DNA of 64,000 nucleotides from Alphaproteobacteria bacterium (lineage in GTDB: Bacteria > Pseudomonadota > Alphaproteobacteria > UBA828): contig CBDCCI010000002.1 of the NCBI GenBank assembly GCA_965214705.1, forward strand, positions 1,696,001 through 1,760,000, given 5' to 3'. This document shows, one piece after another, positions 3,577-47,862 of the stretch (its first letter is position 1; each line of letters starts with the position of its first letter). The position numbers were made by a program, and so were the translations under genes. Under the pieces are notes generated by a model. That model searched no databases. It saw only the letters and a program-made list of their open reading frames with translations, and had not been told where the DNA came from.

Positions 3577-3577
3577 C

Positions 3578-19990: not shown

Positions 19991-20083
19991 GGCGGCACGC
20001 AGGCGGGGCCGCAGATTTCGGTCGCGGTCCCGCCTGCACTTTTCCCTGGTCATGCATTGGCGAATCGGATTAAGGGGTGGCCC

Positions 20084-24761: not shown

Positions 24762-25502
24762 CGGCGCGTGGAGGCCGAACGCGCGGGCGTGGCGGAGATC
24801 TTCCGCCGCGCCGGCGCCGCTTTCCGTGAGCGCCACAAAGGGCGCATCGACGCCGCCCGGCTCAAGGTCATGGGCGCCATCGAGGCGTGCCGCACCGCCG
24901 TGCTCGGCGGCCACATGTACGCCTGCGAGGGCTGCGGGCGCGAGCATCCGCTCTTCAACTCCTGCCGCAACCGCCACTGCCCCACCTGCCAGGGTCTCGC
25001 CGCCAACCTCTGGAGCGAGGAGCGCGCCGGGGACATCCTGCCGGTGCCCTACTTCCATGTGGTCTTCACCCTGCCCAAGGAGGTTGCCGCCATTGCCTTC
25101 TGCAACCGCAGGGTGGTGTGGTCCTAAACTTGATATTATTGGGGTACGTCAGGTAGTGGAGTGGGTCGTTTTCTCTCCTGCATATGTGTTACATTACAGG
25201 TGATTGGTTCGTTTCGCAAGAGGATTGTGGCGGCTCTTATCTGATATAAAATTTTGTGCCGTGAACCGATCAGTTGCATTTTGGGAAGTGAAGGCGTATG
25301 TCAGGAGCGGTGAGTCTGTCATTGCGGAGACACGCACGATGGATATTCGTGCTTGTAGAGGGTATAAGGCGGTGGGTATTCGTGACGTATGCGGATGGGC
25401 GGTTCGTAACTGTTTTATATGGTGTTATGCAGGTGGTTTCGGCACGAACGCGGGTCCTTCGAGGTTTGTCACGCAGTATTGCACCGTCCCCGGGGTGCCC
25501 TC

Positions 25503-25812
25503 ATGAGCCGCCGGCCGGTGGAGCGCCGCAAACAGCACGCGGTAATGGCGACGGCGAGCGAGTGGGTGCGAATCCGCGAACTCGCGGCCGACGCAGGCAT
25601 GGATCTCTCGCGCTACATCGTGCACAGGGCGAGCGCGCCGGACCCGCTGCCGGATAGCGTTCTGCGCCGCGCGGTGCGCGAGCTTCTGCTGCTCGCGAAG
25701 ATCGAGCAGCAGCGTATGGCCGACATGGGGCTGGAGGAGCGCTGGAAGGCGCTCGGCGATGCCGTCGACGCGTGGCTCGACCGCGAGGCGGAGCTCGACC
25801 GGCTGATCGATC
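25503..25812 (+). pseudogene. Small ribbon-helix-helix (MobC-like) protein, cut by IS66
   Basis: RRKQHAVMATASEWVRIRELAADAGMDLSRYIVHRA; paralogue at 37124. Confidence 0.6.
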
Positions 25813-28227
25813 GTAAGCGGTATTGGGCCCCCATACTTCCAGCGAATCTGATTTCGGGGCTGACTCTCCGCCTTGACCACGAGCCACACAGGAGAGATCG
25901 CGATGACAGATTCGATTTTGGCATCTGGCGACGGTGTCGCTGTTGCTTCGGTTGAGATCCCAGCTTCTGAGGGAGCCGCCCCGGCTCCGTCTGAGCCGGC
26001 CCCCATGCGACGCTGGCCGGACGATGAGAAGGCGCGGATTGTCTCGGAGAGCTTTGAGCCGGGCTCTTCGGTTGCGGCGGTCGCGCGCCGCCATGGCGTC
26101 AGCGATACGACCCTGACCAAGTGGCGGCGGCGCGCGCGGGAGGGAACTCTTCCGGGCGCTCGGATTGGTGGCTCTGCACCGCCATTTGTTCCCGTGGTGG
26201 TTGATAGCGTGACGTCCGAGCGGACGGTGGCGATCGAGGCGCTGGGCGTCGTCGTGCGGCTTCCGGTGGAGAGCGCGGTCGATCGGATCGTGGCGGTGGC
26301 CTCGGGCCTGGGCCGGGCGTCGTCATGATCGCGGCCCCCTCGCTTCGCATCGTGCTGGCGACGCGGCCGGTTGATTTTCGTCGCGGCCACGACGCGCTTG
26401 CGGCGACGGCGGCGGGGGAGCTGGACCTCGATATCTATTCCGGGGTGATCGTGATCTTCCGCTCGCGCCGCGGCGACAGGCTCAAGCTCCTTGCGTGGGA
26501 CGGCAGCGGTCTGGTGATGACCTACAAGCGTCTGGAGCAGGGCCGCTTCGCCTGGCCCCGGATCGAGGATGGTGTGATGCGCCTTACGAAGGGCCAGTTC
26601 GAGGCCCTGTTCGAGGGCCTTGACTGGCGCCGGGTCAAGGCCCTCCCGGTTCGCCGCCCGCTGGCGGCGGAGTGAGGCGGCACGCAGGCGGGGCCGCAGA
26701 TTTCGGTCGCGGTCCCGCCTGCACTTTTCCCTGGTCATGCATTGGCGAATCGGATTAAGGGATCGGCCATGCCGAAGGTCACGCCCTCACCCCTCAGCAG
26801 CGCCGGTTGGCCGTCGCCTGCGGTGGTTTCGGCGGCGCTGGCGGCCCTGCATGCGGAGCTTGACGACGAGCGCGCGGCGCGCCGGGCGACGGAAGCAGCC
26901 CTATGCGAAGCGGAGCAGGCACGCGGCGCGGCGGAGGCGGCGAGGCAGACGGCGGAAGCGCGGGCGGCACGGCTGGAGGCCGAGAACGCGCACAGCGCGG
27001 AGCAGATCAGCCGGCTTGAGCATCTCAACAAGGAACTCAGGAAGGCGCTGTTCGGTCCGCGCTCCGAGAAGCTCAACGAGGACGAGCGCCAGCTTACGTT
27101 CGAGGAGTTTTGGGCGGCGATCGCTGAAGCCGGCGGTCGGCCCGAGGCAGATGACCAGGAGCAGGACGAGGGGGCTGGCGGCAAGCGCCGGCGGCGCTCT
27201 TCCCGGGGGTCGCGCAGCGGGGTGCGCTTCGGGCCCCAGGTCGACCGGCGCGAGGAGGTGATCGAGCCGGACACGATCATGTGCCCCTGCGGCTGCGGCG
27301 AGATGACGAAGATCGGCGAGGACCGAGTGCAGCGAGACTAGCTGCTGTGCTTGCAGGTGAAAGTCCTGCCGGCGCAATTCTCAGTTTGGCGCCGTAGTCA
27401 TATCCGGCAGGCATCTGGGGCGACCCGATGACCTGAAAGCCCGGACGGAAAAGCCTCGGGGGGCCGGGGAACCCAGTGGGTCCCAAGGTCTGGTCAGCTC
27501 GGTGAGGCGAGCGAACAGGAGGGCCGCAGCGAAAGCGAACGGACTAGACGCCGAAAATGCCGATCCGCATGAAGCTGATTCGAGCGGGACTATTGGAGCT
27601 GCCAAGGGTTTCTGTGGTCTACCCGATGGCCAGTGCCGATGCGGAAGAACTGAGGCGCACGTATCGGGGCTCCCGGCGTAAGCTGATGGTGGCAATTCTG
27701 GAAAGCACAGTAGTGAAAGTCCGGAAGGTGTGGAGGTTGGACAGGATGACCCTACGAATGTCGAAGACCGTCGCTATAACCGGGCGATCCGGGAAATGAG
27801 ACGGAGATCTTCACACTGGCGGATGAGGTCGCCAAGCGTAGAGGGGCGGGACAACATAACCCGTCCTGAGCGAGGACCTCTGGGCACAGGTGGGCGACGC
27901 CGTAGCAGGCAATCCGCACACAGAGGCGGGCTAACGTGCCGCGCAGGGTGGCGTCTTGAGGACGGAGTAAACGTGGGTCTCGTTCGGGGGCATGGCGGGG
28001 TCGGCCTTAATCCCGGCGGTCCTGCGGAAGGCTCCGCTCCAAACTTCGCGGTGCCTGTTGCTTGAAGCCGTACCGTGGGAAAACCCGATGTACGGAATTT
28101 TAGGGGGGGCGGCTGGAAACGTGGCCTACGGCGGAACTGTGACCCCACCCTGCAACCGAAAGGGCAGGGATGGAAACCCTCCGCCTACGGGTGCGCGCGC
28201 CAGTGCCCTACCCGACAGCGAGCGGCT
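25813..28227 (+). mobile_element. IS66 second copy, truncated (tnpA 25903-26328, tnpB 26325-26675, tnpC from 26769 interrupted)
   Basis: Starts GTAAGCGGTA; near-identical to 19128 onward; tnpC broken by the intron and then by an IS110 end. Confidence 0.92.
27327..28216 (+). ncRNA. ORF-less group II intron, 890 nt (alternative register 27326-28215)
   Basis: 5' GTGCAGCG; domain V GAAGCCGTACCGTGGGAAAACCCGATGTACGG (~28064-28100) with AGC triad; extended domain VI ending CCCTACCCGAC. Flanks rejoin tnpC (ED-R-SERL). Confidence 0.88.
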
Positions 28228-28521
28228 TCCGTAATGGGGCGGTTGATGTCAAGCACCGATCTTCACAACGTTCCGGCCTGGCACGGCCATTCGAACATGG
28301 GGCACCGTCGCCTGCGGTTGGGCCTCTCGCAGGCATGGTCAACATGATCGACACAGGTGGTTGCCTTGGCGGCTTCCGTAATGGGGCGGTTGATGTCAAG
28401 CACCGATCTTCACAACGTTCCGGCCTGGCACGGCCATTCGAACATGGGGCACCGTCGCCTGCGGTTGGGCCTCTCGCAGGCATGGTCACCATGATAGACA
28501 CAGGTGGTTGCCTTGGCGGCT
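28222..28521. repeat. 147-bp tandem duplication (2 units, 2 SNPs) of an IS110 right end
   Basis: Units start at 28222 and 28369; a partial third GCGGCT at 28516. Confidence 0.92.
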
Positions 28522-28982
28522 AACGGGCTCGTCGACGCGGCACGGTGAAGGAAGCGGGACCCCCGGATATGTCCCCGTCGCCAGGCTCTCGCTTCCGTCC
28601 GTGGTCAGCGCAGAGCGGCTGCCAACTTCATGCCTGGTGCAAGACGATTCCCGAGTGCCGATCTGGTGTGCGTGCTCGAACGCCAAGAGGCGATTCGGCA
28701 ACAGCCGCTAGCACGTGCATCATCGGGAACCGCGTCCCGGCGAGGGGATAGCGGTGGATCGCCACCTTCAGGCGCGGCTCTTTCCTCCTCTCGCTGCTGA
28801 TTGCCGGTGGGATGCAGCCGCGCCTATGCCGTCTGGAGCGCCATCGCCTCCTCGCGCGTGAAGCGGAACTCGGTGCCGTCCCGCCACATCCGGTGAAGTA
28901 CCACGCCGATGCGCCGGGCCAAGGCGACGGTCGCCCGCTTCTTGCCGCGGAGCTTCGCCAGACGCAGCGTCCAGGCCTTCAG
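28226..28982 (-). pseudogene. IS110/IS1111-type remnant: transposase C-terminus (28982->28824) plus long right non-coding end
   Basis: LKAWTLRLAKLRGKKRATVALARRIGVVLHRMWRDGTEF; terminal CTTGACATCAACCGCCCCATTACGGAAG. Confidence 0.82.
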
Positions 28983-29012
28983 ATCCTATGGGGCCGACTC
29001 GGAGACCGGCAC

Positions 29013-31201
29013 TACGGTGTCGTTCTCGCTAGACCTCATCAGGAGACAAGAGATGTCCCCAACGAACGCAGGGCGGATTTGTACTTCAGCCTTTGGCTAG
29101 GCCGGCCAGCGAGTTGCCTGAAATAGTGGACTTGCTCCCCGTGTCCTGATATGAGTGCCGCGAGGCAGCCGTGGGGACTGGCAAGCTGTGGCAGCTCTAT
29201 CGGAGGTGGCGGTCGACATCGTGGCGGCGGAGGACGAGGCCCGCTTCCGCGACTTGATGCAGACACACCACTACCTCGGCGCGGTGCCGGGGATGGGCGA
29301 GACCGTGCGCTATGTCGCGCACCATCGAGGGCGATGGCTGGCGTTGGCGGTCTTCTCGGCACCGGCGCTGAAGTGCGGTGCGCGCGATCGCTGGATTGGC
29401 TGGGACCGCGGCCTTCAGTTCGGTCGTCTTCACCTGGTCACCAACAACTCGCGCTTCCTGATCCTGCCCGGCGGTCCGCGCAATCTCGGCTCGCGGGTGC
29501 TGTCTTTGTGCACGCGCCGTCTGGTGAGGGATTGGCCGATCCGCTTCGGTCACGACGTGCTGCTGGCGGAGACGTTCGTGGACCCGGCGCTCTTCCGGGG
29601 CACGGTCTACCGCGCGGCCAACTGGATCGAGGTCGGGCGCACCCGCGGCTTCGCTCGCGGCGGGGCCGGCTACAGCGAGCACGCACGGCCCAAGCGCGTG
29701 TTCCTTCTTCCCCTGTCCCGCACCGCGCGGGCCCGGCTGCGGGCCGACGATCTCGACCCCCGTCTGCGACATGGAGTGCCGAAGATGACGCTCACCGCCG
29801 CACAGATGCGATCCCTCCCCGAGTTCTTCCAGGGCATCGACGATCCCCGCCGCCGCCAGGGCCGGCGCCATGCGCTGCCCACGGTACTGGCGCTCGCCGC
29901 CGCCGCGACGTTCTGTGGCATGCGCGGCTACAAGGCGATCAGCGAATGGGTCGACGACCTCAGTCCCAGGGTGCTGCAGCGCTTCCGCGTGCGCCGCCGC
30001 GACGGCCGGTACCGCCCGCCCAGCCTGTCGGCGATGCGCAGCCTGCTGATCCGCGTCGATCCGGTCCAGCTCGACGCCGCGCTCAGGGCCTGGCACGAGG
30101 CCCACGGCTCGGGCGACAGCGCGCTGGCCATCGACGGCAAGACCATCCGCGGCGCCATCGATGACGATGGCAGGCAGGCTCATGTGCTCGGCATCATAGG
30201 CCACGACACCAAGGCGCCCCGGGGGCAAAAAAAATCGGCATGAGGCCCGACGCCAACGAAGGGGAGAAGCGCACCAACGAGATCGGCACCATCATCCCCC
30301 TGCTCGAGACGGTGCCCGACATCGCGGGTCGCACCGTCACCGCCGATGCTCTGCTCACCCAGCGGGCGCTGGCCTCCTAATCTGCGCGACCGCGGCGCCG
30401 ACTATCTGTTCACCGTCAAGGGCAACCAGCCCACCTTGCTCGACGACATCCGGCTCACTCTCGACGAGGCCATCGCAGGCCGCGCGCCGGACTTCGCGGA
30501 CGAGAGCCCCAAGCCCGAGCATGGCCGCCGCGAGCGGCGCTCCATCTGGGTCTCCAGCGAGCTCAACGACTACCTCAACTTCCCCGGCGTCGGACAGATC
30601 TTCGCCGTGCGGCGCGAAACCCGGCACGTCAAATCCGGCAAGAGAAGCTGCGAGACGGCTTACGGCGTCACCAGCCTGAGTGCGCAGGCCGCATCGCCGG
30701 AACGCCTGCTCACCCTCAATCGCGGGCACTGGACCATCGAGGCGACCCATCACATCCTCGACTGGAGCTTCGACGAGGACCGATGCCGTATCCGTTCAGG
30801 CTACGGTCCGGAGAACATGACCCTGCTGCGGCGCTTCGCCATCGGCGTTATCAAGGGGCGCGGGCTCGCCGTCGCCGAGACCATGCGCAATCTGGCCAGG
30901 AAACCGAGGCGGGTTCTCGACTTCCTGAAAATGACCGACAACGTCGCTCCGAGGACAGCGCCCAGCTGACCGCCCCCTCCGGGCCGCGTCCATCGCCGCG
31001 ACGCCAACCCTCGGAACGCCGGGGGCGAGCGGTCATGTCCAGATGAAGCCGTGCTCGACTCTCGCGGCCAAGGGCAGCGCTATGCGGCGGCGCCATGGCG
31101 GCCAAATCCGGTGGCCAGCCCCGCAAGGTCCTCAACGAAAGCGCGTGGAGCATGATTGAGTGCCGTCAGCCAGCGGCGAAAATCAGAACGATTTTGCCGT
31201 G
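29013..31201 (+). mobile_element. ISAs1-family element with N-terminal DUF4338 (DruA-like) domain; ORFs 29155-30243 and ~30240-30969, frameshifted
   Basis: HHYLG..GETVRYV..RDRWIGW..NNSRFLILP..NLGSRVL..ETFVDP..GTVYRAANW, then DDPRRRQGRRH, AIDGKT, VKGNQPTL, HGRRERR, RGHWTIE. A8 run at 30227-30234 and a second break near 30378. Confidence 0.85.
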
Positions 31202-32373
31202 GGGTCATCGCCTCCCTCGACCCCGAGCAGATCGAGGCGGCGCTGCAACGCTTCTCGATGCCGAGACTGAACCTTGGCCGCGCGATCGCGCTCGACGGAG
31301 AGCGCATTCGCGGCGCCAACCGCAACGGCGAGGGCCACCACGAGACCGCGACCCTGGTCGACCACGCAACCGGCGCGCCGCTCGCAAGCCTCGCCTTCAA
31401 CGACGCAGGCGGCGAGATCGCGGCCGTGTGCGCGCTGCTCGACGAGGTTCCCGTCGAAGGCCGCGTGATCACCATCGACGCGCTCCACACCAAGCCCGTT
31501 TCAAGATCTTCACACCAAGCCCGTTTCAAGATCTTCACACCACCCGCGACACCACCCGCGACACCACCCGCGACACCGCGCGCACCATCAAGGAAACCCA
31601 CGGCGCCGACTATCTCATGACGGTCAAGGAAAACGCGCCCGAGACCTGCGAGACCCTCGCCTCCATCGACTGGGAGCGCGACGCGAGCGGACACTTCGAG
31701 GAAGATGTCGCCAAGGCCCATGGCCGCATCGAGCAACGCCGCATCGAGACCCTGACCCCGCTTCCAGGCCTGATCAACTATCCTCATGTCGCGCAGATCT
31801 TCCGTGTCACCCGCAAGCGCACCGACGCACGGCGCAACGGCACAGGCGAGACCAGCATCGAGCACGCCTACGGCATCACCTCGGTGCCGGCAGAGCGCGC
31901 CTCGCCTCAGGACCTTCTCGCCTGGAACCGCGGCCACTGGTCGGTCGAGGTCAACCACCACGTCAGGGACAAGCTCTTCGCCGAGGACGCCTGCCTCGCG
32001 CGCACCGGCTTCGCGCCCGAGAACAACGCGCTCTGCACCAACATCGCGATCGCGCTCATCATCCACAAAACCGACTTCGACAGCGTCGCCTCGGCAACCC
32101 GCCACTTCGCGCTCCAGCGCGAGGACGCCTTCGCCGCGATCCTTTCCCCCTGAGCGCCACCACGCCGTCCGATCCGGACGGCAGACAATGGCGGTGTGCA
32201 ACCTCGTCACCGCTCAGCTGTCAGCACTGACGTTCATTGCGGCCAAGCCAACGTCTCGCCCGAACCGAGAGCCGTGAGCCTGCGAATCGGGCTATCGCGC
32301 GGGAGCCGCAACACCCGAAATCGCCCGAACGCGGCCCAGATCGTCCGCATTTGGGGAGCGTGGGATAGTCCTG
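31202..32373 (+). pseudogene. Second ISAs1-family transposase, 5'-truncated, with micro-tandem insertions
   Basis: IALDGERIRG, ITIDALHT, VKEN, HGRIEQR, RGHWSVE; right end GTGGGATAGTCCTG. Confidence 0.85.
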
Positions 32374-32629
32374 GACGATGCGCTGTCGGACCTTGCCGCC
32401 GTCGCGCACGCCCTCGACGAGTTGCACCGAGCGGCGCGGGCTGTTGGGGGTGGTCTTGATACGCACGAACATGGGGGAAGCATAGCGAGCGGCGGCGCCA
32501 TAGACAACTCAAAATAACTACTAGGCACAACAAGGCGGCTTGACCGCACCGTAACTGCCAAGTCATTGTCTTTACTGGAATCCCGAACCGGGATTCCAGC
32601 GTAAACTCGGCTCAACCGTCGAAGTCAGG
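32374..32629 (-). pseudogene. IS1634-family left end and N-terminal remnant
   Basis: CCTGACTTCGAC end; MFVRIKTTPNSPRRSVQLVEGVRDGGKVRQRIV. Confidence 0.75.
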
Positions 32630-32692
32630 AATACTCCTACTCGCCATCTCCATGCTCCATGTGGAGTTCCTTCGACCCTGGAGACAAGCTCA

Positions 32693-33979: not shown

Positions 33980-34113
33980 TGCTGTTGTACGTCGCGGCGT
34001 AGCTATTCGCGAAGAGGCTTCTCCCTTTGATTCCAGTTACGAAAGATGTTGGGGGCAGTTTGCGAATGGGGTGGACGAGGCGCGGGGCTCTTGGTCCTGG
34101 CAAGGCGCCGTCA

Positions 34114-36528: not shown

Positions 36529-36543
36529 CAATCGAAACGGTGT

Positions 36544-38727: not shown

Positions 38728-38728
38728 A

Positions 38729-38880
38729 CAGCACCGCTGGAAGCCGCGCACCCTGAAGGTGAACCGCGACTACCTCCATCTGCAGATCCTGCCCTTTTTC
38801 GCGGGCAGGCCCATCGGAGAGATAACCTAGGAGGACGTGCGGGCCTGGTTCCGTGGGCTGCACGCGGCGCCCGCCGCAAC
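38729..38880 (+). pseudogene. Fragment of a third paralogue of integrase A
   Basis: HRWKPRTLKVNRDYLHLQILPFFAGRPIGEIT*EDVRAWF aligns with 44742-45866. Confidence 0.75.
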
Positions 38881-38994
38881 GAGTTTGGCCACAGCCAACC
38901 CCCATCCACTTGACTTACATCGGTTTCCCATCAGGACACAGATTCTCTGTAGCACAAAGAGTCGTCTTCTGCCAAGATCGCAGAGTTAAGTCTT

Positions 38995-39962
38995 ATGAGC
39001 TTCAGCTTTGGAGTTAGAGACGTGTCTAGTGCATACTCCGTCGCCAACACCATCAAGGTGGCCAGTCACCGCAGTTTTCGCAACTTCTATCAAGCGGCTT
39101 GCTACCTTCAGGGCAAAGAACATTCCCCTTTCGGGACGCTCAAGGTAAAGGAGACTTCGATAAGCTACACGCGAAAGATTATGCGTGAGACAGGTATGAC
39201 ACTGGCTCAAGTGGAAGAGTGGGCCGCTAGCAGAATGCAGTAGTGCATTTTGGAGGTCCGCACTAGCCTGTATCGGTTTCAGATAAAGACTTCCTACTGA
39301 ACAATTTTCGATGGGACAACTGTTGGAACGTATGAAATGACGGTATGATCGCAAGACACTATCCCTACTCCGCCAAATCGCAAAGGTGATGGATGTGGTG
39401 CCGTCTAAACCCTCGAAGGCGTCCCAGCCTAAGAGCGACGACGATCCAGATATCGAAGATGGCGAAGCATCTGATCTTGACCAAATTGACGCCAATCAGA
39501 GAGACCAAGAAGCCAGAAAGTCTTCGAGAAATTCTCGTCCATGAGATGGTGCCTCCTGGATGGGAGCTTGCCCATGAGCTCTCTCCCCGTGGGTTGAGCC
39601 AGCGCGCGACCACCGCGCGCTTCCAAGGCCGGCTCCGTTGCTGCGGAGCCGACCCCACTTCTGACATGTGGTGAAGACCAAAGTCAAGGTGGCGTAGAAT
39701 GGTCGGAGAAGCCTGGAAGAACGTCGTGACTCACAAGCGTTTTTGCGCTGATATTCAAGGTCTGGTGAACAAAGCGCAAGCTATCGGTGATCCATCAGAA
39801 CAAGAATTGAATAAGGCGCTTGAACGTGTGAAATCACGAGAGCTTATTCGTGCGCAGAATGCTACAGTTGATCTTGGTCGAGTGAAAGGTCTCTGTTCAG
39901 ATGAACAGTTGCGCAAGCAGATCGAGACTATTGGGCGCGAACTTGATACGGTGGTCTATTAG
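38995..39962 (+). other. Low-GC patch with short hypothetical ORFs (38995-39243, 39699-39962)
   Basis: Composition shift only; no motif recognised. Confidence 0.35.
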
Positions 39963-39969
39963 GAACTAA

Positions 39970-40901
39970 GTGTCCGGCCCGAAACGAATTGAGTGATTTC
40001 AGTTGGTTATGCTTCACTGGTTGTGTCCGAGCAATCAGCGAGGCACAAGATGTGGACTGAAATCACTCGACCGAAGTATGACCGTACGGGGCTTCGTTAC
40101 GCAAGCGATCTGACCGATGCCGAATGGCGCGTGATCGAACCGCATATGCCGGCGCCGCAGGCTCTGGGCCGGCCGCGGACGACGGACCTGCGGGAGGTGG
40201 TAAACGCCATCCTGTATGTCTTGCGCTCGGGCTGCCCCTGGCGGTTGCTGCCGAAGGACTTTCCGCCGCGTTCGACGGTGCAGCGCTATTTCGCCGCGTG
40301 GCGGGACGACGAGCGGTGGGCGCGCATCAATCACCATCTCCTGATGGCGGCCCGCGAGGCCGAGGGGCGCGAGGCCAGCCCATCGGCCGGCGTCATCGAC
40401 AGCCAGTCGGTCAAGACCACGGAAAGTGGCGGTCCACGGGGCTTTGACGCGGGCAAGAAGATCAAGGGCCGCAAGCGCCACATCCTCACCGACACCGGCG
40501 GTCTGCTGGTTGCCGCTCAGGTCCACGCCGCCAACATCCAGGATCGCGACGGCGCCCCCTCGGTGCTCGCGTCCATCCGCCACGCCTTCCCCTGGCTGCG
40601 TCGCGTCTTCGCCGACGGCGCCTATGCCGGCCCCAAGCTCGCGGCGGCTTTGCAGCGGATCGGTCGGTGGACCCTGGAGATTGTCAAACGCCCGCACGGC
40701 GCACGAGGTTTCGACGTCCTGCCGCGCCGCTGGGTGGTCGAGCGCACCCTGGCTTGGTTGAACCGCAATCGACGGCTCGCCAAGGACTTCGAGGCCAGCG
40801 TCGCCACTGCCCAAGCGTGGCTCTTCATCGCCAGCGTTCAAGCTCCTTACCAGAAGACTGGTAAGATATCGCAAATCAATACCTTATTATGGGCCAGACT
40901 C
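39970..40901 (+). mobile_element. IS5-family (IS1031-like) element, transposase from 40050
   Basis: YASDLTDAEW, IDSQSVKT, GFDAGKKIKGRKRH, FADGAY, PRRWVVERT; TAA TSD. Confidence 0.92.
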
Positions 40902-40922
40902 TAAAGTAGCTAAAGGCAGAAT

Positions 40923-42588
40923 GTAACTGCCCAGGTTGTCTGATTTGTCATTTTGGGCCAGTGAGTTGAGGTGCGGTTCGCTCGGAATTGACGCGAAGGG
41001 CTTGACGGGAGTTTCGGAAAATGACTCAACAACGACATGACCAATCCCGAGTCGCCGCGCGGCCCTTCGACGGGGGCACAGCCCGAAAGTTCCGAGCAGA
41101 AGATCGCTCGCCTGGAGGAGGAGAACGCCTGGCTTCGGCAGCAGAATGCGCGGCTGGAGGAACAAAACACGCGTCTTGTCGAGCGTATCGAGGAGTTGGA
41201 ACGCCGTCTCGGACTGAGCAGTCGCAACAGCGCCAAGCCGCCGTCGAGCGATGGGTTGAAGAAGCCGAGGGCCAAGCGGCGAACCCAAAGCCAGCGGGGC
41301 AAATCGGGGCGCAAGCCGGGCGGTCAGCCCGGCCACAAGGGCGAGACGTTGCGCCGCACGGATCACCCGGACCGGGTGGAGAACCACGTTCCGGCTGCCT
41401 GCGAGGGATGCGGTTCGTCCCTGTCGGCGGCGGCCACGGCAGGGGTGTCGCACGCCCGCCAAGTCTTCGACCTGCCCGAGGCGCGTGCGCTGGAGGTGAC
41501 CGAGCACCGGGCGCATGCCAAGTGCTGCGGGCATTGCGGGACGGTGACGCGGGCGGCGTTCCCCGAGGGGGTGTCGGCGCCGGTGCAGTACGGGTCGCGC
41601 ATTGCCGGAGTGGCGGTCTACCTTCAGCACGCCCACTTCCTGCCGGAGGACCGGCTGTCGCAGGTGATGGCGGAGCTGTTCGGCGCGCCGGTGACGGCTG
41701 CGACGCTGGCGGCGATGAGCGACCGGGCGGCCGATCGGCTGCGGGGAGTTGCCACCCACATACAGGAGCTTGCGGCGGGCACGGCGCGGGTGAAGCACCT
41801 CGACGAGACCGGGTTGCGGATTGGCGGGCAAACGCAGTGGCTCCATGTGATCTGCACGCCGCATCTGGCGGCATTCCGGGTCAGCGCCAGGCGCGGCGAC
41901 CTGCTCTCGGGTGTTTCCGGCATCGTCGTTCACGATCACTGGAAGCCGTACTTCACGTTGGAGGGGGTGGAGCACGGCTTGTGCAACGCCCACCACCTGC
42001 GGGAGTTGCAGGCGCTGGTGGACATCGAAGGGGAAGGCTGGGCCGGATGCATGCAGCAGCTCCTGCGCCGGGCCAATCGCGCCGCCCGGATCGCGCAGGA
42101 CAAGGATATCGCCGTTCCGGCGAGGCTTGTGGCGCTGATCGAGCGCCGCTACGACAGGATCGTCGCCGAGGCGCTGGCCTTCCACGAGAGCCAGCCGCCG
42201 CTCTCGCCTCCCAAGCCCGGAAAGCGGGGACGCAGGAAGCGGCGGATCGGCCACAACCTCGCCCTGCGCCTGCGCGATCGAAAATGCGCGGTTCTCCGCT
42301 TCCTGACCGACCCCGAAGTGGCGTTCACCAACAACGAGGCCGAGCGCGACCTGCGGATGATGAAGCTGCGCCAGAAGATCTCCGGCGGCTTCCGATCCGC
42401 AAAGGGGGCCGAGAACTTCGCCATCCTGCGCAGCGTGATCACCACCGCCAGAAAGCAGGGCTGGAACATCATCGAAGCCCTGATGAGCCCATCGGATCGG
42501 CTCATCGCCACCGTCAAGTGCGCGTGAGCCTACCGGGCAAGAACTCCCCAACACCGGAATCACCTCAGTAAGCGACCTGGGCAGTTAC
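40923..42588 (+). mobile_element. IS66-family single-ORF (ISBst12-like) element, transposase 41037-42527
   Basis: IRs GTAACTGCCCAGGT / ACCTGGGCAGTTAC; NSAKPPSSD, GGQPGHKG, DETG, HDHW, CNAHHLREL, TNNEAERDLR. No TSD. Confidence 0.93.
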
Positions 42589-42619
42589 TTCCGGTCATCG
42601 GTTTCTCTCCCTCAGTAGT

Positions 42620-42945
42620 CCTGACTTCGACGGTTGAGCCGAGTTTTCGCTGGAATCCCGGTACGGGATTCCAATAAAGACAATGACTTGGCAAGTGCGG
42701 CGCGGTCAAGACGCTTTGTTGTGCCTAGTATGTATTGTGGGTTGTCCATGGCGCCGCCGCTCGCTATGCTTCCCCATGTTCGTGCGCATCAAGACCACCC
42801 CCAACAGCCCGCGCCGCTCGGTGCAACTCGTCGAGGGCGTGCGCGACGGCGGCAAGGTCCGCCAGCGCATCGTCCGCCACATCGGCGTGGCCATGGACGA
42901 GGACGAGCGCCTGGGGCAACTCGGCGAGTACGTCAAGGCGAAGCT
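42620..42945 (+). pseudogene. IS1634-family left end and N-terminal remnant (second)
   Basis: Inverted, diverged paralogue of 32374-32629. Confidence 0.75.
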
Positions 42946-42955
42946 GACCTCCCTC

Positions 42956-43130
42956 CAGGACTATCCCACGCTGGCCGAGCATCCGCTCCAGGGGTGGGTC
43001 GGGGCGATCCCATCCGTGCCGTGATGGCGGTCTGTGGGCTCTGTGGGCGTCGCCAATCGGCCATATCTCGTTCGGAACCCGTCATCCGGGCGACCGATTC
43101 CGGTCTGGGCCGTAGCGTGGGATCACCCTG
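42956..43130. mobile_element. 175-bp MITE with ISAs1-type ends
   Basis: CAGGACTATCCCACGCT...AGCGTGGGATCACCCTG; 10-bp TSD GACCTCCCTC (42946-42955, 43131-43140). Confidence 0.9.
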
Positions 43131-43140
43131 GACCTCCCTC

Positions 43141-43362
43141 TCCGGCCCGTGTCCATCGCCTCGCCAACCCTCGGCACGCCGGGGGCGAGCGGTCATGCCC
43201 AGATGAAGCCGTGCTCGACCCTCAGCGGCCAGGAGGACCGCTATACGGCGGCACCATGGTGGCCAAATCCGTTGCCCAGCCCCCGCAACGACCGCACCAA
43301 AGCGGGTGGACCATGATTGGGTGCCGCGAAGCAGCGACGAAAATCAGAACGAATTTGTCGCG
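43141..43362 (+). repeat. Relic right end of a DUF4338-ISAs1-type element
   Basis: Colinear with 30975-31201. Confidence 0.75.
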
Positions 43363-43364
43363 CC

Positions 43365-43570
43365 TAACAATGGCCATCGGGGTGTTCGGCCAAGCCATCG
43401 GCGCGCCGGGATGGGCTGACATGCCGCTCGTGGGCGGGCGCTTCGCCACCGGCGCCGCCGGCACGGACTACATAGCCGGCGCCTTCCGCGGGCCTGACCA
43501 GGAGGAGGTCTGGGGCGTGCTCGACACCGGGGCGTATGTCGGCGCGTTCGGGGCCAGGCGGGAGCGCTGA
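43365..43570 (+). pseudogene. C-terminal beta-barrel fragment of a TbpB-like surface lipoprotein
   Basis: IAGAFRGPDQEEVWGVLDTGAYVGAFGARR matches the G-x-F-x-GP..E..G..GAFGAK pattern. Confidence 0.5.
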
Positions 43571-43592
43571 ACGGCAGGGCCGTATCGATTGC

Positions 43593-44738
43593 CTACATGC
43601 CGATGATGTCTGCGATGGCCTTTCCGACCCTCTCGGCCGCCGCTTCGATGTCACGATCGCCGAGGTGGGCATACCGCAGAGTCATGCGGACGTTGGCGTG
43701 ACCGAGAAGGCGGGAGACGACGGGGACCGGCACGCCCTTCATCACGGCGTGGCTGGCATGGGTATGCCGGAGATCGTGAAGGCGGACGTCCTCGATGCCG
43801 GCCTCGCGGCGCACCCGGGACCAGAGCCCGAGATTATCTCCGAGCGGCCGCGCCGGATCGCGCGGCGAGGGAAACACGAAGGCGCTCCCCTGCCGCGGTT
43901 GCCGTTCGATGATTCTCCGGGCATGGGAGTTGAGCGGAACCTTTCGCGGTCCGGTCTTGGCTTCGGCCAGCATCAGCGCGTCGCCCTGGACCTCGGACCA
44001 GCGGAGGCGCACGATCTCGCCCTTGCGGCAGCCGGTCAGCAGCAGAAGCCGGACGATGTCGGCCTGCTGTCGGTCGCTCTCGCGGGGTAGTCCGTCGAGC
44101 GCCCGGTGCAGGCGGCCGATCTCCTCGCGGGACAGGAAGCGGGTGAGCGGCTGGCGGCGGTTCCCCTTGATGCCGCGCGTCGGGTTGGCGTCGATGTAGC
44201 CGCAGGCCATGGCGAAGTTCATGATCTGCCTGAGAAGCTTGAGGGCGCTGTTGGCATTGCCCGGCGCAGTCCGGCTGAACGCATGGAACCATTGCGCGGC
44301 CTGAGCCGGGGTGATGCGGTCGAGCGGCTTCGATCCGAAGGCGGGCAGGATGCGGCCTTCAAGCACGGAGCGGACGCCCCGTTTCGTGGACGGCTTGTAT
44401 CGGTCGAAATGAGCCTGCTTCCACTCGTTTGCGACGAAGTCCCGCATCAGCGGCGCAGCGCGCGTCGGCGCGGCCTCCCTGTCGGGCTCGGGGCCGGCCT
44501 GCCGGGCGAGGCACTCGCGGCGCGCCTCGGCGACGCTCGCGGTCTCCACCGGGCCGAGCGACACGCGTCTCGATCCGCCCGCGGATTGCCGCAGGAGAAC
44601 CCAGCTCTTCCCGCCGGTGGGCCTGACCCGGACGCCGAGCCCCGGCGCGCGGCTGTCCCATACGGTATATTCCCGCTCGCGGGGCCGCAGGCGGGCAACG
44701 GCGGCGTCGGTGAGGCGCATGCGTTTTCTGCCGGACAT
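43593..44738 (-). CDS. Arm-type tyrosine recombinase B (381 aa)
   Basis: Arm-binding N-terminus LTDAAVARLRP..WDSRAPGLGVRV; TGCRKGEI, KTGPR, HDLRHT, LLGH, TLRY. Confidence 0.95.
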   Translation of the reverse strand: MSGRKRMRLTDAAVARLRPREREYTVWDSRAPGLGVRVRPTGGKSWVLLRQSAGGSRRVSLGPVETASVAEARRECLARQAGPEPDREAAPTRAAPLMRDFVANEWKQAHFDRYKPSTKRGVRSVLEGRILPAFGSKPLDRITPAQAAQWFHAFSRTAPGNANSALKLLRQIMNFAMACGYIDANPTRGIKGNRRQPLTRFLSREEIGRLHRALDGLPRESDRQQADIVRLLLLTGCRKGEIVRLRWSEVQGDALMLAEAKTGPRKVPLNSHARRIIERQPRQGSAFVFPSPRDPARPLGDNLGLWSRVRREAGIEDVRLHDLRHTHASHAVMKGVPVPVVSRLLGHANVRMTLRYAHLGDRDIEAAAERVGKAIADIIGM

Positions 44739-44741
44739 GGC

Positions 44742-45866
44742 TCATGTTCCCCCCAGCGCGTCGCCGACGGTCTCGGCGGCCTCGGCGATCATGCTGTCGG
44801 CGAGATGAATGTATTTGAGGGTGGTCTCGGGGCTGGCGTGGCCGAGCAGGCGGGCGATGGCGAGGACGGTCTCGCCGCTCCGCAGGGCGATGCTGGCATA
44901 GGTATGGCGGAGGTCGTGAAGGCGCACATCCGCCAACCCGGCCTCGGCGCGAAGCTCGCGCCAGAATGTGTCGAGCCAGACGGCGCCCCGCGGCCCTCCG
45001 GTGCGGGGCGCCGGGAAGACCCACCGCCCGGTCCGCTCGATGCGGTCGAGGACGTTCCGCGCCGGGCTGGAGAGCCAGACGGTTCGGGGACCCGTCTTGC
45101 TGTCGCGCAGGAAGAGACGGCCTTCGCGATAGTCGGACCAACGCAGCGTCAGGATCTCGCCCTTGCGGCACCCCGTGAGGAGAAGAAGGCGGATCGCCGC
45201 GACCTGAAGCGGCTGCCCGTCGGCATGAGCGGACAACACCGTGGAGAGGCGGCGGATCTCGCCGTCGGACAGGAAGCGCTCGCGCCCCTTGCGGCGGTAG
45301 CGCCGGATGCCTCGGCAGGGGTTGGAGCCCTCGGGACGAAGGCCCATGGTTTCCGCCTCGCGCATGATGACCGAGAGAACCGGCATGGACCTGTCTGCTG
45401 CGACCGGGGTCGCACGCAGGGCAAGGAACCAGTCGCGGACGTCCTGAGCGCCGATGTCGGCGATCTGCCGTCCCGAGAAATGAGGCAGGATCCGGCTGCG
45501 CAGGTAGCGGCGGTTGACGTTGAGGGTTCCGGTCTTCCAGAGGTGGCGGTGACGCTCGAACACGGTCTCGGCGACGGCCTCGAAGAGGGTTTCGGCGGAA
45601 TCGCGGGGGACTTCCTCGCCCCGCCGCATGGCGGCGAGCGTCTCGCGCGCGCAAGAGCGCGCGTCGTCCACGCTCATGGTCCCGGCGTCGCCTATGATCT
45701 TCCAGACCCGCTCGCCGCGGTGCTGGCAGTGGACGAAAAAGCGCTTGCGTGCGGAGGGCAGGATCCGGACGCCGAAGCCCCTGAGGGCACCGTCGCGGAG
45801 GTCGTAGGTGGCCTTGCGGGGCTTGAGCCTGCGGACGCGGGCCTCGGTGAGGGTGATCCTGGGCAT
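44742..45866 (-). CDS. Arm-type tyrosine recombinase A (374 aa)
   Basis: LTEARVRRLKP..RDGALRGFGVRI; TGCRKGEI, KTGPR, HDLRHT, LLGH, TLKY. 3 bp upstream of B. Confidence 0.95.
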   Translation of the reverse strand: MPRITLTEARVRRLKPRKATYDLRDGALRGFGVRILPSARKRFFVHCQHRGERVWKIIGDAGTMSVDDARSCARETLAAMRRGEEVPRDSAETLFEAVAETVFERHRHLWKTGTLNVNRRYLRSRILPHFSGRQIADIGAQDVRDWFLALRATPVAADRSMPVLSVIMREAETMGLRPEGSNPCRGIRRYRRKGRERFLSDGEIRRLSTVLSAHADGQPLQVAAIRLLLLTGCRKGEILTLRWSDYREGRLFLRDSKTGPRTVWLSSPARNVLDRIERTGRWVFPAPRTGGPRGAVWLDTFWRELRAEAGLADVRLHDLRHTYASIALRSGETVLAIARLLGHASPETTLKYIHLADSMIAEAAETVGDALGGT

Positions 45867-47862
45867 GAATTTGCTCCCGGCTGCGGTTGCAGGCGGGGAA
45901 CGGCCGGTCTCCGGATTGGCCCCGCTGCAACAAGTGTCAGGAGAAAAAACGACCCTGTGTCAGACAGTTAGCACCGAAGGTGCGTAGGGTGGTGTTCGAC
46001 ATCCTCTTCCGGGCCGTCGCCGAGACCCTGCGCACCATCGCCGCCGATCCCCGCCACGGCGGCATGCGCATCGGCGGCACCGCGGTCCTCCATACCTGGG
46101 ATCAGAAGCTCCGCTTCCACCCGCACCTGCACGTGGTCGTGCCCAACGCGGGCTTCGACGTAGACAGTGGCGAGTGGAAGACGGGGAGCACCACCTTCCT
46201 CGCCCCCGTCAAGGTCCTCGGCAGCCTGTTCCGCCGCCTCTTCCTCAAGGAGCTCGCCCGCGCCCACGGCCGGGGGGACCTGGAGTTCCACGGCACCCTC
46301 GCCCACCTCGCCAATCCCGGCGAGTTCCACGCCACGCTTGCCGCCGCCCGGGCCAGGGACTGGGTGGTCTACGCCAAGCGGCCCTTCCGCGGGCCTGAGC
46401 AGGTCTTCCGGTACCTCTCGCACTACACGCACAGGATCGCCATCTCCGACAGCCGCATCGTCTCCTTCGACGGCGAGACGGTCTCCTTCCGCCACCGAAA
46501 GCCCAAGGCGCCGGGGCAGAGAAAGCCGCGCTACGGCATCGCCACCGTGAGCGCCGACGAGTTCATCCGCCGCTTCCTGAGGCACGTCCTGCCGGACGGC
46601 ATGCACCGCACTCGCTACTTCGGCATCCTCGCCAACGGCTGCCGCGCCAGCACGCTGGAGAGAGCACGCCAGGCTCTCGGCGCCCTCGGCTGCGCCGCCC
46701 CCGAGGGAAGCGTGGACGGCGCTCGGGCCGAGCCCGACGAAGAGCCCGAGATCGGCACCGCGCCCGTGGCCTGCCCCCACTGCGGCGGCGTCATGCGCCT
46801 CGTCCGCGAAATCCGCCGCCGCCATGAGCCCCGCTCGACGCGCGGCCCGCCGGCGCTGCCGCCGACCCACAGGGGGAAACCGTGAGACGCCCGCTCGCTT
46901 CGGCCCCGCGCAACGGCGCCAAAGCGCCGACGCACGACCGAACCTGTCTCCGCTTGAGCCGGGCTGACAGCCCTCGGCTCACACCCCGCTCAGTCCTCGC
47001 AGCGTGCGCCCGCATGCCTGCCGAAAGACCGGCGCGAGCGTCGATTTTATGCGCAACTCTGCTGCCGGTGGATGCCGCCTGACGCTGACATCAGCGCACT
47101 TTCCACATAGCTCAACTTCGCCTCTCGTGGCCCGCGGCTTCGTTCAAAAGGGTTGGGCAGGCTCTCGAGAGAGAGCCTGCCCAACCCTTAACCTTGAACA
47201 GCGACAGCTGCTGGTGCCCGTGCACGGCATCGCAGGTGTCGTCGATATCCAGCGTGATGGCGGCGGGTGGGGCTGAGAAGGAGCGGCAGAAGAGATCGAC
47301 CAGGGCGGCCGTCATGCGCGCCACCTCGATGCGAGACGGAGCGTTCTCCAGGCGGCTCATGGTGGGCTGGGAACAGAGATCGCGGCCGTTCTCCGGCGCC
47401 CGGCCTGAGGCCAGCTTGAACAGAGGGTCCGCGCGCAGCGTGTCGCAGTCGTCGGCGTCCTCGTACCCGCAGGCGATGGCCAACATGCGAAAGCGGAGCA
47501 TGGCCGAGAGCGAGTGGATCACCTGCGCCTGATTGCGCCGGTCCCGGATGCAGCCCGCCAGGGTCTCGGCGAGACGCAAGCGGCGTTCCGCTTCGCGCAG
47601 CAGGACGAGGCCGCCGTCAGACGAGATCAGGCCGCCGTCGAAGGCGGCGCTCACCTTCTTGCGCGCGACGGCTGGCAGATCGAAGGGGAGAAGGCTATCG
47701 TCGGTCATGGCGGGCGTGGCGTGGCGTGGCTCGGAGAGGAAGACGCTCGGACAACGAATTCCTACCCGATGGCAACGGCTTACGCTACGTTCGCCACCCC
47801 AAAATCAGACCTGCCATGAATAATCCGGGCTAGAGTGGCGGCGCGGCAAGGCGAGGGCGCGG

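What the first reader, a model, noticed from the sequence alone, without database searches (positions are those of the whole stretch)
25110..45995. Candidate new transposon family: tandem arm-type tyrosine recombinases, N5-GGTGT targets and a 10-bp direct repeat
Seen: 20,866 bp inserted in a target whose empty sequence is present in the sister IS91-like copies, leaving AGGGTGGTGT on both sides. All four junctions share GGTGT in the same register: AGGGT-GGTGT|GGTCCT (25110), GAAAC-GGTGT|GGTCCT (36534), GGTGCGT|AGGGT-GGTGT (45986) and GGTGCGC|CGAGC-GGTGT (55274, minus strand). The ends are asymmetric. The right tip is a GCACC-N3-GGTGC hairpin whose stem is conserved and loop varies (45971-45983, 55277-55289). 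An 18-bp motif, RGGTCGYTTTYTCTCCYG or a close variant, is inverted at the two ends (25163, 36587, 45938, 55305). Two catalytically complete integrases 3 bp apart read inward from the right end, and an RHH gene follows a ~380-bp AT-rich left end. Established: tyrosine recombinases do not normally create duplications; Tn554 and RIT use several recombinases but have different layouts. Inference: a heteromeric recombinase transposon with a short target motif that hops into other mobile genes and carries cargo.
Basis: partly seen in the sequence, partly recalled or inferred. Interest (0 to 1): 0.86.

Follow-up and report, generated by a model that had tools for sequence, protein, structure and literature searches.

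The report
Two-integrase mobilizable island family, GGTGT core
The 20.9-kb insert is a decayed member of a large, apparently undescribed family of mobilizable genomic islands that move with two adjacent tyrosine integrases, and its 10-bp flanking repeat is a crossover sequence shared by island and target, not a transposon-style target duplication.

Summary

The genome holds 37 such right ends and 33 left ends. Every right end is followed by N5-GGTGT (CGTGT in two). Nearly every left end is preceded by it.

I paired 24 elements: 14 have a perfect 10-bp repeat, 7 have one mismatch and 3 have two. Ten of the 13 mismatches lie at N4 or N5.

Paralogous empty sites carry exactly one copy of the 10-mer. 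Where the two junctions differ, one carries the target's allele and the other a foreign one. N5 is therefore carried by the element. The repeat is a shared crossover core with segregated heteroduplex, not a fill-in duplication.

Intact members carry three NikA-like RHH genes and a 1592-aa TrwC relaxase next to the left end. The family is thus integrative and mobilizable. The window copy has lost that module.

One public run holds both the occupied and the precisely empty site of an intact member.

Five literature searches found no description. I rate it a new variant of a known kind.

The parts
23652..25109 (+). Left part of the interrupted IS91-like unit (integrase-like orfA 23721-24761; start of the Y2 transposase gene from 24768)
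   Evidence: 100% identical to 6348-7815. Pfam on the intact copy 48028-50316: Phage_integrase, then Zn_Tnp_IS91 + Y2_Tnp.
25110..25119 (+). Left copy of the 10-bp core AGGGTGGTGT (N5 + GGTGT)
   Evidence: intact IS91-like copies hold a single copy.
25120..25502 (+). Left end (LE1): tip GGTCCTAAAC, subterminal motif GGGTCGTTTTCTCTCCTG at 25163-25180, 50% G+C
   Evidence: same architecture in 33 left ends genome-wide.
25503..25812 (+). NikA-like RHH gene; its 3' end is replaced by an IS66 copy that begins at 25813
   Evidence: weak Pfam NikA-like hit, E 6.6e-4, below the curated cutoff; residues 1-103 match homologues, and the rest matches an IS end present at many places; 25813-27325 is 98% identical to 19128-20640.
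25813..36533 (.). Cargo 1, mostly IS debris: IS66 orfs, group II intron fragment (27351-27534), DruA-like/DDE_Tnp_1 ORFs, IS630-like transposase (34158-35228), Sel1-repeat ORF (35770-36528)
36534..36543 (+). Internal core copy GAAACGGTGT in front of a second left end; no right end precedes it
36544..37123 (+). Second left end (LE2), 89-95% identical to LE1, with an insertion of about 187 bp at 36842-37028
37124..37396 (+). Second NikA-like RHH gene copy, also cut short (an IS110-type transposase ORF follows at 37771-38547, minus strand)
37397..43592 (.). Cargo 2: IS110, IS4/5 and IS66-family transposase genes
43593..44738 (-). intB, 381 aa, arm-binding tyrosine recombinase with a complete catalytic set
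44742..45866 (-). intA, 374 aa, arm-binding tyrosine recombinase with a complete catalytic set, 3 nt upstream of intB
   Evidence: the 3-nt gap is seen in 10 of 10 pairs with clear ORF calls.
45867..45985 (-). Right end (RE): inverted subterminal motif at 45938-45955, palindrome GCACCGAAGGTGC at 45971-45983, terminus ...GGTGCGT
45986..45995 (+). Right copy of the 10-bp core AGGGTGGTGT
45996..47196 (+). Right part of the interrupted IS91-like unit
   Evidence: 99.8% identical to 7803-9016.
55265..55393 (+). Third copy, opposite orientation: core ACACC-GCTCG (55265-55274), then the right end (55275-55393). It sits inside a tyrosine-recombinase-like gene.
   Evidence: three paralogous empty sites carry CGAGCGGTGT.
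55394..56240 (+). intA of the third copy, 5' part (residues 1-284), cut by an IS91-like copy (56241-58908) and a DDE_Tnp_1 IS (58979-60757)
61006..62442 (+). intA 3' part (61006-61272) and intB (61282-62442) of the third copy. Its left end lies outside the window at G000 C3 1780844 (window coordinate about 84844).

Best explanation
The insert is a degenerate member of a family of integrative mobilizable elements.

A full member consists of: a left end of about 380 bp (inferred to be oriT-like), one to three NikA-like RHH genes, a TrwC-type relaxase-helicase, cargo, intB, intA, and a 119-bp right end.

The element excises as a circle whose joint reads RE-N5-GGTGT-LE (inferred). It integrates by tyrosine recombination into sites that have GGTGT, usually followed by a purine, preceded by five bases like its own N5.

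Strand exchange spans at least N1 to the first G of GGTGT, an overlap of roughly 6-8 bp. A fully matching target therefore gives a perfect 10-bp repeat, as at 25110/45986. A partly matching target gives heteroduplex that replication sorts, leaving the target's allele at one junction and the element's at the other. Each jump can thus change the spacer, and so the next target, which makes the element behave like a transposon with many possible sites.

IntA and IntB probably act together, each on different half-sites, as XerC and XerD do (inferred).

The window copy kept both ends and both integrases but lost its relaxase, and both of its RHH genes are cut by IS elements. Its second internal left end marks either capture of neighbouring DNA through an upstream orphan left end, or a nested insertion followed by a deletion between the two integrase modules.
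For: Family and ends
- About 30 intA-intB tandems are found by tblastn.
- 37 right ends all read flank-ACAC[CG]-N5-|RCGYACC-N3-GGTKCTA.
- 33 left ends match a profile built from 21 of them. Nearly all are preceded by GGTGT.
- The same right-end register appears in 29 of 79 loci from other assemblies that pass the strict pattern: 22 with exact ACACC, 4 with one substitution, 3 shifted by one base.

Repeat
- I paired 24 elements by position and orientation: 14 perfect, 7 with one mismatch, 3 with two.
- Mismatch positions: N1 1, N3 1, N4 5, N5 5, position 6 1, positions 7-10 none.

Empty sites
- Left flank + one 10-mer + right flank exists as an exact paralogue for six elements: the AGGGT, TTGTC, GACGT, AAAGA, CGCCA and CGGGT sites.
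- GGCAT (one exact paralogue) and CAGAC (best 1 mismatch) match sites inside sibling integrase genes.
- 3 of 11 queries found none.

Element-borne spacer
- Third window copy: target CGAGCGGTGT in 3 paralogues with 50 of 50 flank bases identical. The right junction has it; the left junction has CGCGA, which is also at the left junction of sibling C1 2534726.
- C2 610227/640507: target CCGGTGGTGT in 3 paralogues. The left junction has it; the right has CCGAT.
- C1 1337680/1355106: the target paralogue has TTGAATGTGT. The left junction reads CTGAATGTGT, one base from that paralogue; the right has CTGATGGTGT.

Spacer inheritance
- Seven copies 96-98.6% identical lie in seven different flanks with N5 = CGTCC, CGTCA, CGCAC, CGCGC, CGTCT, CGCAT, CGAGC.
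- Among 23 pairs of right ends at least 95% identical but in different flanks, N1 and N2 agree in 96% of pairs. Among 626 distant pairs they agree in 24-25%.

Mobilization module
- L096 and L097 carry NikA-like RHH genes plus a TrwC + AAA_30 protein of 1592/1598 aa next to the left end.
- Relaxase homologues lie near many left ends.

Mobility
- Run X1 has a contig joining L096 126 to 14042, exactly the element plus one 10-mer removed. It also has a contig across the occupied right junction.

Coupled integrases
- The 3-nt gap is seen in 10 of 10 pairs.
- Pairwise identities of IntA and IntB correlate at r = 0.96 over 24 tandems. The 276 comparisons are not independent.
Against: - No circle joint was seen. 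There was none among the contigs laid. The one metagenome match to an RE-core-LE pattern is an ordinary right junction.
- Pairing of six of the ten mismatched elements rests on position and orientation alone.
- One pair of right ends at least 95% identical has wholly unrelated spacers, GGCAC and AAAGA. Their IntB proteins are only 70% identical. So the spacer is not simply inherited, or modules are shuffled.
- Several lineages share the same targets (GTTAAGGTGT, TTGTCGGTGT), which protein-determined hot spots could also explain.
- The conserved CG at N1-N2 of the young subfamily could be a protein preference rather than homology.
- No experiment shows that both integrases are needed, or that they bind each other.
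- The empty-site contig could come from a related strain rather than from excision.
- The attempt to repeat the census in a second genome found no left end within 20 kb of any of 12 right ends.
Confidence: 0.72

Rival explanations
1. One reading: a transposon whose recombinases make staggered cuts 10 bp apart in an N5-GGTGT target, with the gaps filled in, so that the repeat is a true target-site duplication and the element carries no core of its own.
For: 14 of 24 paired elements have a perfect 10-bp repeat. Empty paralogous sites hold one copy. A young subfamily occupies seven different sites. One closely related pair of right ends has unrelated N5.
Against: At three elements with known empty sites, one junction carries a non-target N5 while the flanks are unchanged; a fill-in cannot produce that. 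The 13 mismatches cluster at N4 and N5 rather than spreading over 10 positions. The spacer is inherited among close relatives. No polymerase-dependent or DDE-type function belongs to the conserved module.
Confidence: 0.1
2. An ordinary site-specific island. Each lineage has one fixed attachment site, and the many copies reflect many lineages plus duplications of the target-bearing repeats, not repeated hopping.
For: Older lineages are only 55-78% identical. Several sit in the same target sequence in different copies of a repeat: TTGTCGGTGT with 36 empty paralogues, and GTTAAGGTGT. Two 10-mers with similar flanks recur in a second species of the genus.
Against: Seven copies at 96-98.6% identity lie in seven unrelated flanks with different N5. 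Beyond GGTGT plus a purine, the target flanks show no conserved bases. Targets include IS91, integrase and other genes.
Confidence: 0.1
3. Only one of the two integrases performs integration and excision. The other serves another task, such as directionality control, multimer resolution or exclusion of rivals, so the recombinase is not heteromeric.
For: Both are catalytically complete and about 40% identical paralogues. One pair of elements shows IntA 94% but IntB 70% identity, so the two can be exchanged separately. No recognisable excisionase was found in the minimal 4.1-kb member.
Against: The 3-nt spacing is fixed in 10 of 10 pairs and the two proteins co-diverge at r = 0.96. The junctions carry two different words, GGTGCGY and GGTGT, 12 bp apart, which suits two specificities. 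These are inferences only.
Confidence: 0.25
4. The 10-bp repeat at 25110/45986 is a by-product of recombination between IS91-like copies, or a chance match.
For: The host IS has many copies (91 site matches).
Against: The same N5-GGTGT repeat flanks 13 other elements in unrelated hosts. The IS halves abut exactly as in intact copies with one 10-mer. Controls: 15 of 37 against 4 of 37.
Confidence: 0.01

Closest known systems
CTnDOT / IntDOT (Bacteroides conjugative transposon)
   Same: An arm-binding tyrosine integrase whose targets share a short conserved word next to the overlap region. It recombines substrates with mismatches in the overlap provided there is identity at the site of first cleavage (PMC2817482, abstract read). 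This is the closest match in mechanism: here GGTGT is fixed and N4/N5 mismatches are tolerated.
   Different: CTnDOT has one integrase, not a conserved pair, and belongs to a different integrase subgroup (IntCTnDOT against the DUF4102 IntSXT-type; PMC8138268, passages read). CTnDOT is self-transmissible. Here most junction pairs are fully identical, so homology seems to be preferred much more strongly.
GInt islands (ginABCD) and strand-biased circularizing elements (SE); Tn554
   Same: Integrative elements with several tyrosine recombinases at one end, asymmetric ends and an AT-rich far end. They have imperfect flanking repeats, and excision creates variants of the attachment site through heteroduplex of a few bases (PMC5385486, abstract and section 6 read; PMC10214605, part 1 of 10 read).
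   Different: GInt has three integrase-like genes plus a small helix-loop-helix gene. SE has intA-tfp-intB-srap, is confined to Gammaproteobacteria and leaves a 6-bp footprint without a repeat. Both are described as putatively non-mobilizable. Here there are exactly two DUF4102-type integrases 3 nt apart, no gene between them, and a relaxase module.
P4/SXT-type (DUF4102) integrases of genomic islands, ICEs and mobilizable islands
   Same: The same domain architecture: Arm-DNA-bind_3, central domain and catalytic domain.
   Different: Described clusters drive their elements into specific places next to tRNA or conserved genes (PMC8138268, passages read) and work as single integrases. Here the integrases come as a fixed pair, and targets are any N5-GGTGT resembling the element's spacer.
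XerC/XerD
   Same: Two paralogous tyrosine recombinases acting on one site with two different half-sites. This is the model for the inferred IntA/IntB heteromer.
   Different: Xer proteins have no arm-binding domain and act on a chromosomal site. The NCBIfam Xer models hit IntA and IntB far below their cutoffs.
RIT (recombinase in trio) and BIM (bipartite module) elements
   Same: Multi-gene recombinase modules noted in alpha- and betaproteobacterial genomes (PMC3414803, passages read).
   Different: RIT has three recombinases with overlapping genes. BIM is one recombinase plus a second conserved non-recombinase protein. Neither has reported ends or repeats like these.

Membership tests
Tyrosine recombinase superfamily (Phage_integrase) | Catalytic domain with the R, K, HxxR, H/W and Y residues | tested here: met
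   PF00589 hits: IntA E 6.6e-19, IntB E 9.9e-24. Invariant in IntA: R234, K257, H317, R320, H343, Y352; in IntB: R238, K261, H321, R324, H347, Y356. They align to XerA box I/II. Assigning these columns to the catalytic roles rests on the recalled canonical motif.
IntSXT / P4-like integrase subgroup | N-terminal DUF4102 (Arm-DNA-bind_3) arm-binding domain | tested here: met
   PF13356 hits: IntA E 3.4e-9, IntB E 2e-9. Subgroup definition from PMC8138268.
IntSXT / P4-like integrase subgroup | Insertion at one specific site next to a tRNA or conserved gene | tested here: not met
   35 distinct flanks for 37 right ends, with no conserved flank bases beyond GGTGT plus a purine. Targets lie in IS and integrase genes.
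Integrative mobilizable element (IME) | Own integration/excision module plus relaxase and accessory genes, but no mating-pore genes | tested here: met
   L096 (13.9 kb) and L097 (15.5 kb) carry three NikA-like RHH genes (L096), a TrwC + AAA_30 relaxase-helicase, intB and intA. No ORF large enough for a type IV secretion set appears in the ORF lists, but the remaining cargo ORFs were not scanned against Pfam. The window copy itself lacks the relaxase.
Integrative mobilizable element (IME) | Excision as a circle and transfer with a helper | not testable with these tools
   Only a presence/absence polymorphism was seen. No circle joint was found.
Transposons that make target-site duplications | Both copies of the repeat derive from the target | tested here: not met
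   A foreign N5 sits at one junction in three elements whose empty sites are known.
Tn554 / GInt / SE multi-recombinase elements | Their gene sets: tnpABC; ginABCD; intA-tfp-intB-srap | tested here: not met
   Exactly two integrase genes 3 nt apart with nothing between them. Both have a DUF4102 domain. Gene sets are as described in PMC10214605 and PMC5385486. No direct sequence comparison with those proteins was run.
RIT elements | Three different recombinases in a row | tested here: not met
   Two only, in 24 tandems.
BIM elements | One recombinase plus a conserved second protein of another kind | tested here: not met
   Both genes here are recombinases. BIM definition from PMC3414803; its supplementary tables were not available.

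The most novel reading that the evidence does not exclude
A widespread, unnamed superfamily of elements uses a heteromeric pair of arm-type integrases. One integrase reads a fixed GGTGT word. Target choice is otherwise set by base-pairing with a 5-base spacer that the element carries and rewrites at each imperfect jump. This would be an evolvable, sequence-programmable site specificity. The same logic lets members insert into conserved codons of rivals' integrase genes, and tandem integrase pairs on Vibrio, Shewanella, Photobacterium, Paracoccus and sphingomonad plasmids would be distant members.
Probability: 0.35. Interest if true: 0.75.

Novelty: new variant of a known kind. Interest (0 to 1): 0.6.

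Why it matters
The finding turns an apparent paradox, a tyrosine recombinase that duplicates its target, into a testable and conventional mechanism.

It also defines a large family that current annotation labels only 'site-specific integrase'. No NCBIfam model reaches its cutoff.

The family is abundant. All 18 other genomes searched in the genus have matches, with up to 53 per genome against 62 in this one (IntA- and IntB-type hits counted together).

The many natural copies, with both junctions and paralogous empty sites, amount to a ready-made data set on how much heterology an integrase tolerates at each overlap position.

If spacer homology does set the target, a pair of integrases with a 5-bp fixed word and a 5-bp free word would be of practical interest for directing insertions.

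The family also shapes these genomes: its members break IS transposase genes and each other's integrase genes.

Tried and rejected
- Hairpin at the right tip: no compensatory change in the 6 of 37 copies with GGTTC, so I did not adopt it.
- Chance or IS91 recombination as the source of the repeat: rejected.
- Circle joint: no 'goes back' joint from the right end to the left end among the contigs of four runs. Contigs cannot show rare forms, so this says nothing.
- One scan of metagenome contigs for RE-N6-GGTGT-LE tip gave a single match, an ordinary right junction followed by coding-like sequence.
- Repeat of the census in a second genome (G004): 12 right ends found (control 0), but no left end and no second 10-mer within 20 kb on the element side of any. 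It was uninformative, probably because those elements are longer.
- Left ends in the 79 loci from other assemblies: only two profile hits, both in the wrong orientation.
- Empty sites: none found for the GTTAA hot spot, the ACGCT element or the C3 512979 element.
- Two candidate left/right pairs with three mismatches (C1 1542550/1573073 and C3 1646579/1682337) were left out of the 24, because nothing but proximity links them.
- Distant tandem pairs on plasmids: two adjacent integrase genes in 5 of 5 annotated records inspected. The sixth record, from Novosphingobium, has no annotation and I did not check its second gene. ACACC lies 130-190 bp upstream of the first gene in 5 of 6. That is weak evidence, since one such word per 330 bp is expected about a quarter of the time. 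In two records the IntA-like gene is the second of the pair.
- Literature: searches found no description of paired DUF4102 integrases with these ends. The library lacks most subscription journals, and supplementary tables were closed (for example the BIM and RIT lists of PMC3414803), so a prior mention cannot be excluded.
- Complex prediction, structure prediction and the large protein searches were not used. A pass for two paralogous recombinases would mostly reflect likeness to solved recombinase tetramers.

Full report
**What is in the window**

A 20,866-bp segment (25120-45985) splits a 2668-bp IS91-like unit, and AGGGTGGTGT lies on both sides. Three intact copies of that unit in the window hold one copy of the 10-mer. 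The 36-bp stretch around it occurs 91 times in the genome.

The two genes at the right end are arm-type tyrosine recombinases with all catalytic positions conserved, and they lie 3 nt apart. A 383-bp left end with 50% G+C (window 66%) precedes a small RHH gene.

Most of the interior is IS debris: IS66, IS110, IS630-like and IS4/5 elements and a group II intron fragment. A second left end with its own GAAACGGTGT lies inside at 36534. A third, more distant copy lies inverted at 55265 onward, with its intA cut by another IS91-like copy.

**It is a family**

The window lies in a 7.9-Mb genome of three contigs. tblastn finds about 30 complete intA-intB tandems, 55-78% identical to the window pair.

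In all 35 intA genes with an intact start, the DNA upstream reads flank, ACACC (ACACG in two), five variable bases, then RCGCACC-TNC-GGTKCTAA. A pattern search gives 37 such ends and three unrelated hits.

Left ends differ at the tip: GGTCCT, GAGTCCT, GCACTA, GCACTTACA, GAACC, AGAAA or GACAAA. A profile of 21 left ends finds 33 in the genome, nearly all directly preceded by GGTGT.

The right-end register is the same in other assemblies. Of 79 loci fetched with an IntA profile, 29 pass the strict pattern: 22 have ACACC in register, 4 have one substitution and 3 are shifted by one base. All 18 other genomes searched in the same genus have matches, up to 53 per genome.

**The repeat is systematic**

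Fifteen of 37 right ends find their own 10-mer within 100 kb on the element side. The controls give 4 of 37 on the outer side and 4 of 37 inverted.

Pairing ends by position and orientation gives 24 elements: 14 with a perfect 10-bp repeat, 7 with one mismatch and 3 with two. Two further candidate pairs with three mismatches were left out.

Reconstructed empty sites (left flank, one 10-mer, right flank) exist as exact paralogues for six elements. For two more they match sites inside sibling integrase genes, one exactly. Three of 11 queries found none. So insertion does go into a pre-existing N5-GGTGT and leaves it on both sides.

**The repeat is not a target duplication**

The 13 mismatches are not spread over the 10 positions: N1 1, N3 1, N4 5, N5 5, position 6 1, positions 7-10 none.

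For three mismatched elements, paralogous empty sites show which allele belonged to the target.

- The window's third copy sits in a site that reads CGAGCGGTGT in three paralogues, with all 50 flanking bases identical. The right junction at 55265-55274 has that allele. The left junction, at G000 C3 1780844 outside the window, reads CGCGAGGTGT. The same CGCGA stands at the left junction of a sibling element.
- In a second element the target allele is at the left junction and the foreign one at the right.
- In a third, the target paralogue has TGTGT at positions 6-10, as does the left junction, which differs from that paralogue by one base at N1. The right junction has the canonical GGTGT.

A fill-in duplication cannot put non-target bases between an unchanged flank and the element end. 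Recombination between a joint that carries its own N5-GGTGT and a similar target can. The overlap becomes heteroduplex, and replication leaves one parent's bases at one junction and the other's at the other.

The spacer is also inherited. Seven copies 96-98.6% identical lie in seven different flanks, all with CG at N1-N2. Across 23 closely related pairs in different flanks, N1 and N2 agree in 96%, against 24-25% in 626 distant pairs.

One close pair breaks the rule, with GGCAC against AAAGA. It is also the one pair whose IntB proteins are only 70% identical while IntA is 94%. That points to module exchange.

**What kind of element**

Two intact members of 13.9 and 15.5 kb with perfect repeats carry NikA-like RHH genes behind the left end, three of them in the 13.9-kb member. 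Next comes a 1592- or 1598-aa protein with TrwC relaxase and AAA_30 helicase domains, then cargo, intB and intA. Relaxase homologues lie next to many other left ends.

A 4.1-kb member has only the left end, a short RHH gene, one cargo gene, intB, intA and the right end.

The family is therefore integrative and mobilizable.

**Evidence of movement**

When contigs of four public runs are laid on the 13.9-kb member, one run holds a contig that joins position 126 to 14042. That is the element plus one 10-mer removed exactly. The same run holds a contig across the occupied right junction. This shows a presence/absence polymorphism. It cannot tell excision from a strain that never had the element.

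**Two integrases**

The 3-nt gap is kept in 10 of 10 pairs with clear ORF calls. Pairwise identities of IntA and IntB co-vary at r = 0.96 over 24 tandems, though these comparisons are not independent. Each right junction carries two different words in direct order 12 bp apart, GGTGCGY and GGTGT.

A heteromer with two half-site specificities, as in XerC/XerD, is the simplest reading, but nothing here tests it.

**Comparison with known systems**

The mechanism is closest to IntDOT, which needs identity only at the site of first cleavage and tolerates mismatches elsewhere in the overlap (PMC2817482, abstract). It also resembles GInt islands, whose excision makes attachment-site variants through short heteroduplexes (PMC5385486, abstract and section 6).

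It is not a member of the GInt, SE, Tn554, RIT or BIM groups, whose gene sets differ.

The proteins fall in the DUF4102 IntSXT-type subgroup. Its described members are single integrases with fixed sites (PMC8138268, passages), so both the pairing and the loose targets are departures.

No NCBIfam model names the proteins. Five full-text searches found no description, within the limits of that library and without supplements.

Adjacent pairs of related integrases (31-42% identity) are also annotated on plasmids of Shewanella, Vibrio, Photobacterium, Aurantiacibacter and Paracoccus. Whether they work the same way is open.

**The inner left end**

Nothing resembling a right end precedes 36534, so this is not a tandem array.

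One possibility is that an upstream orphan left end recombined with the right end and carried the intervening DNA along. The other is that a second element inserted inside the first and a deletion between the two similar integrase modules followed. The perfect repeat at 25110/45986 shows that the whole 20.9-kb unit was what entered the IS91-like copy.

**Verdict**

It is wrong in the key mechanistic claim of a target duplication. I place the finding as a new variant of a known kind, with interest 0.6.

Noticed in passing
G000 C1 360393-360464 and C3 about 2760672-2760756 (outside the window): Two family members have 12-bp tandem arrays exactly at the left junction. One is (CGCGGGTGGTGT)x6 just outside the left-end tip, where paralogous empty sites have only one unit. 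The other is (GACAAAACATGA)x7 inside the tip. Twelve bp is also the spacing of GGTGCGY and GGTGT at every right junction. Unexplained; possibly mis-registered crossovers.
   Followed up: partly
G000 C1 365447-381014 within 360465-382340; C1 614735-654614 within 597587-655650: Family members are nested in each other's integrase genes. One sits in the conserved EYTVW codons of an intB, where TACACCGTCTGG contains ACACC plus N5. Another sits in an intA. Paralogous integrase genes provide the matching empty sites.
   Followed up: partly
window 6346-9013, 16484-17791 + 22201-23564, 23652-25119 + 45986-47196, 47959-50624, 56241-58908: An IS91-like unit with an integrase-like orfA (346 aa) ahead of the Y2 transposase (413 aa) is present five times in the window, twice interrupted. 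Its target stretch is found 91 times in the genome, a very large expansion.
   Followed up: partly
window 55150-55264 (minus strand): The third copy is inserted in a tyrosine-recombinase-like gene: the flank encodes HVIRHT, a box II-like stretch by my reading. Three intact paralogous sites exist elsewhere.
   Followed up: no
window 27351-27534: Group II intron D1-D4 fragment (Rfam RF02003, 57 bits) directly behind the IS66 copy that ends at 27325, inside the cargo.
   Followed up: no
window 28222-28521: Two tandem copies of a 147-bp unit, 98.7% identical, in non-coding cargo.
   Followed up: no
window 29155-30243: ORF with a DruA (Druantia) domain fused to a DDE_Tnp_1-associated domain, followed by a DDE_Tnp_1 ORF. 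Probably an IS-type gene rather than a defence gene.
   Followed up: no
window 36842-37028: An insertion of about 187 bp with GGCTTATCC...GGATAAGCC ends sits in the second left end. A similar end (GATAAGCC) adjoins the GTTAAGGTGT hot-spot target used by several elements elsewhere.
   Followed up: no
G004 (same genus), right ends at C1 678209 and 1364171: Two right junctions have the same or nearly the same 10-mer and similar flanks as two in G000: GAGCACGTGT, and GCTAAGGTGT against GTTAAGGTGT. These may be old insertions inherited within the genus or shared preferred targets.
   Followed up: no
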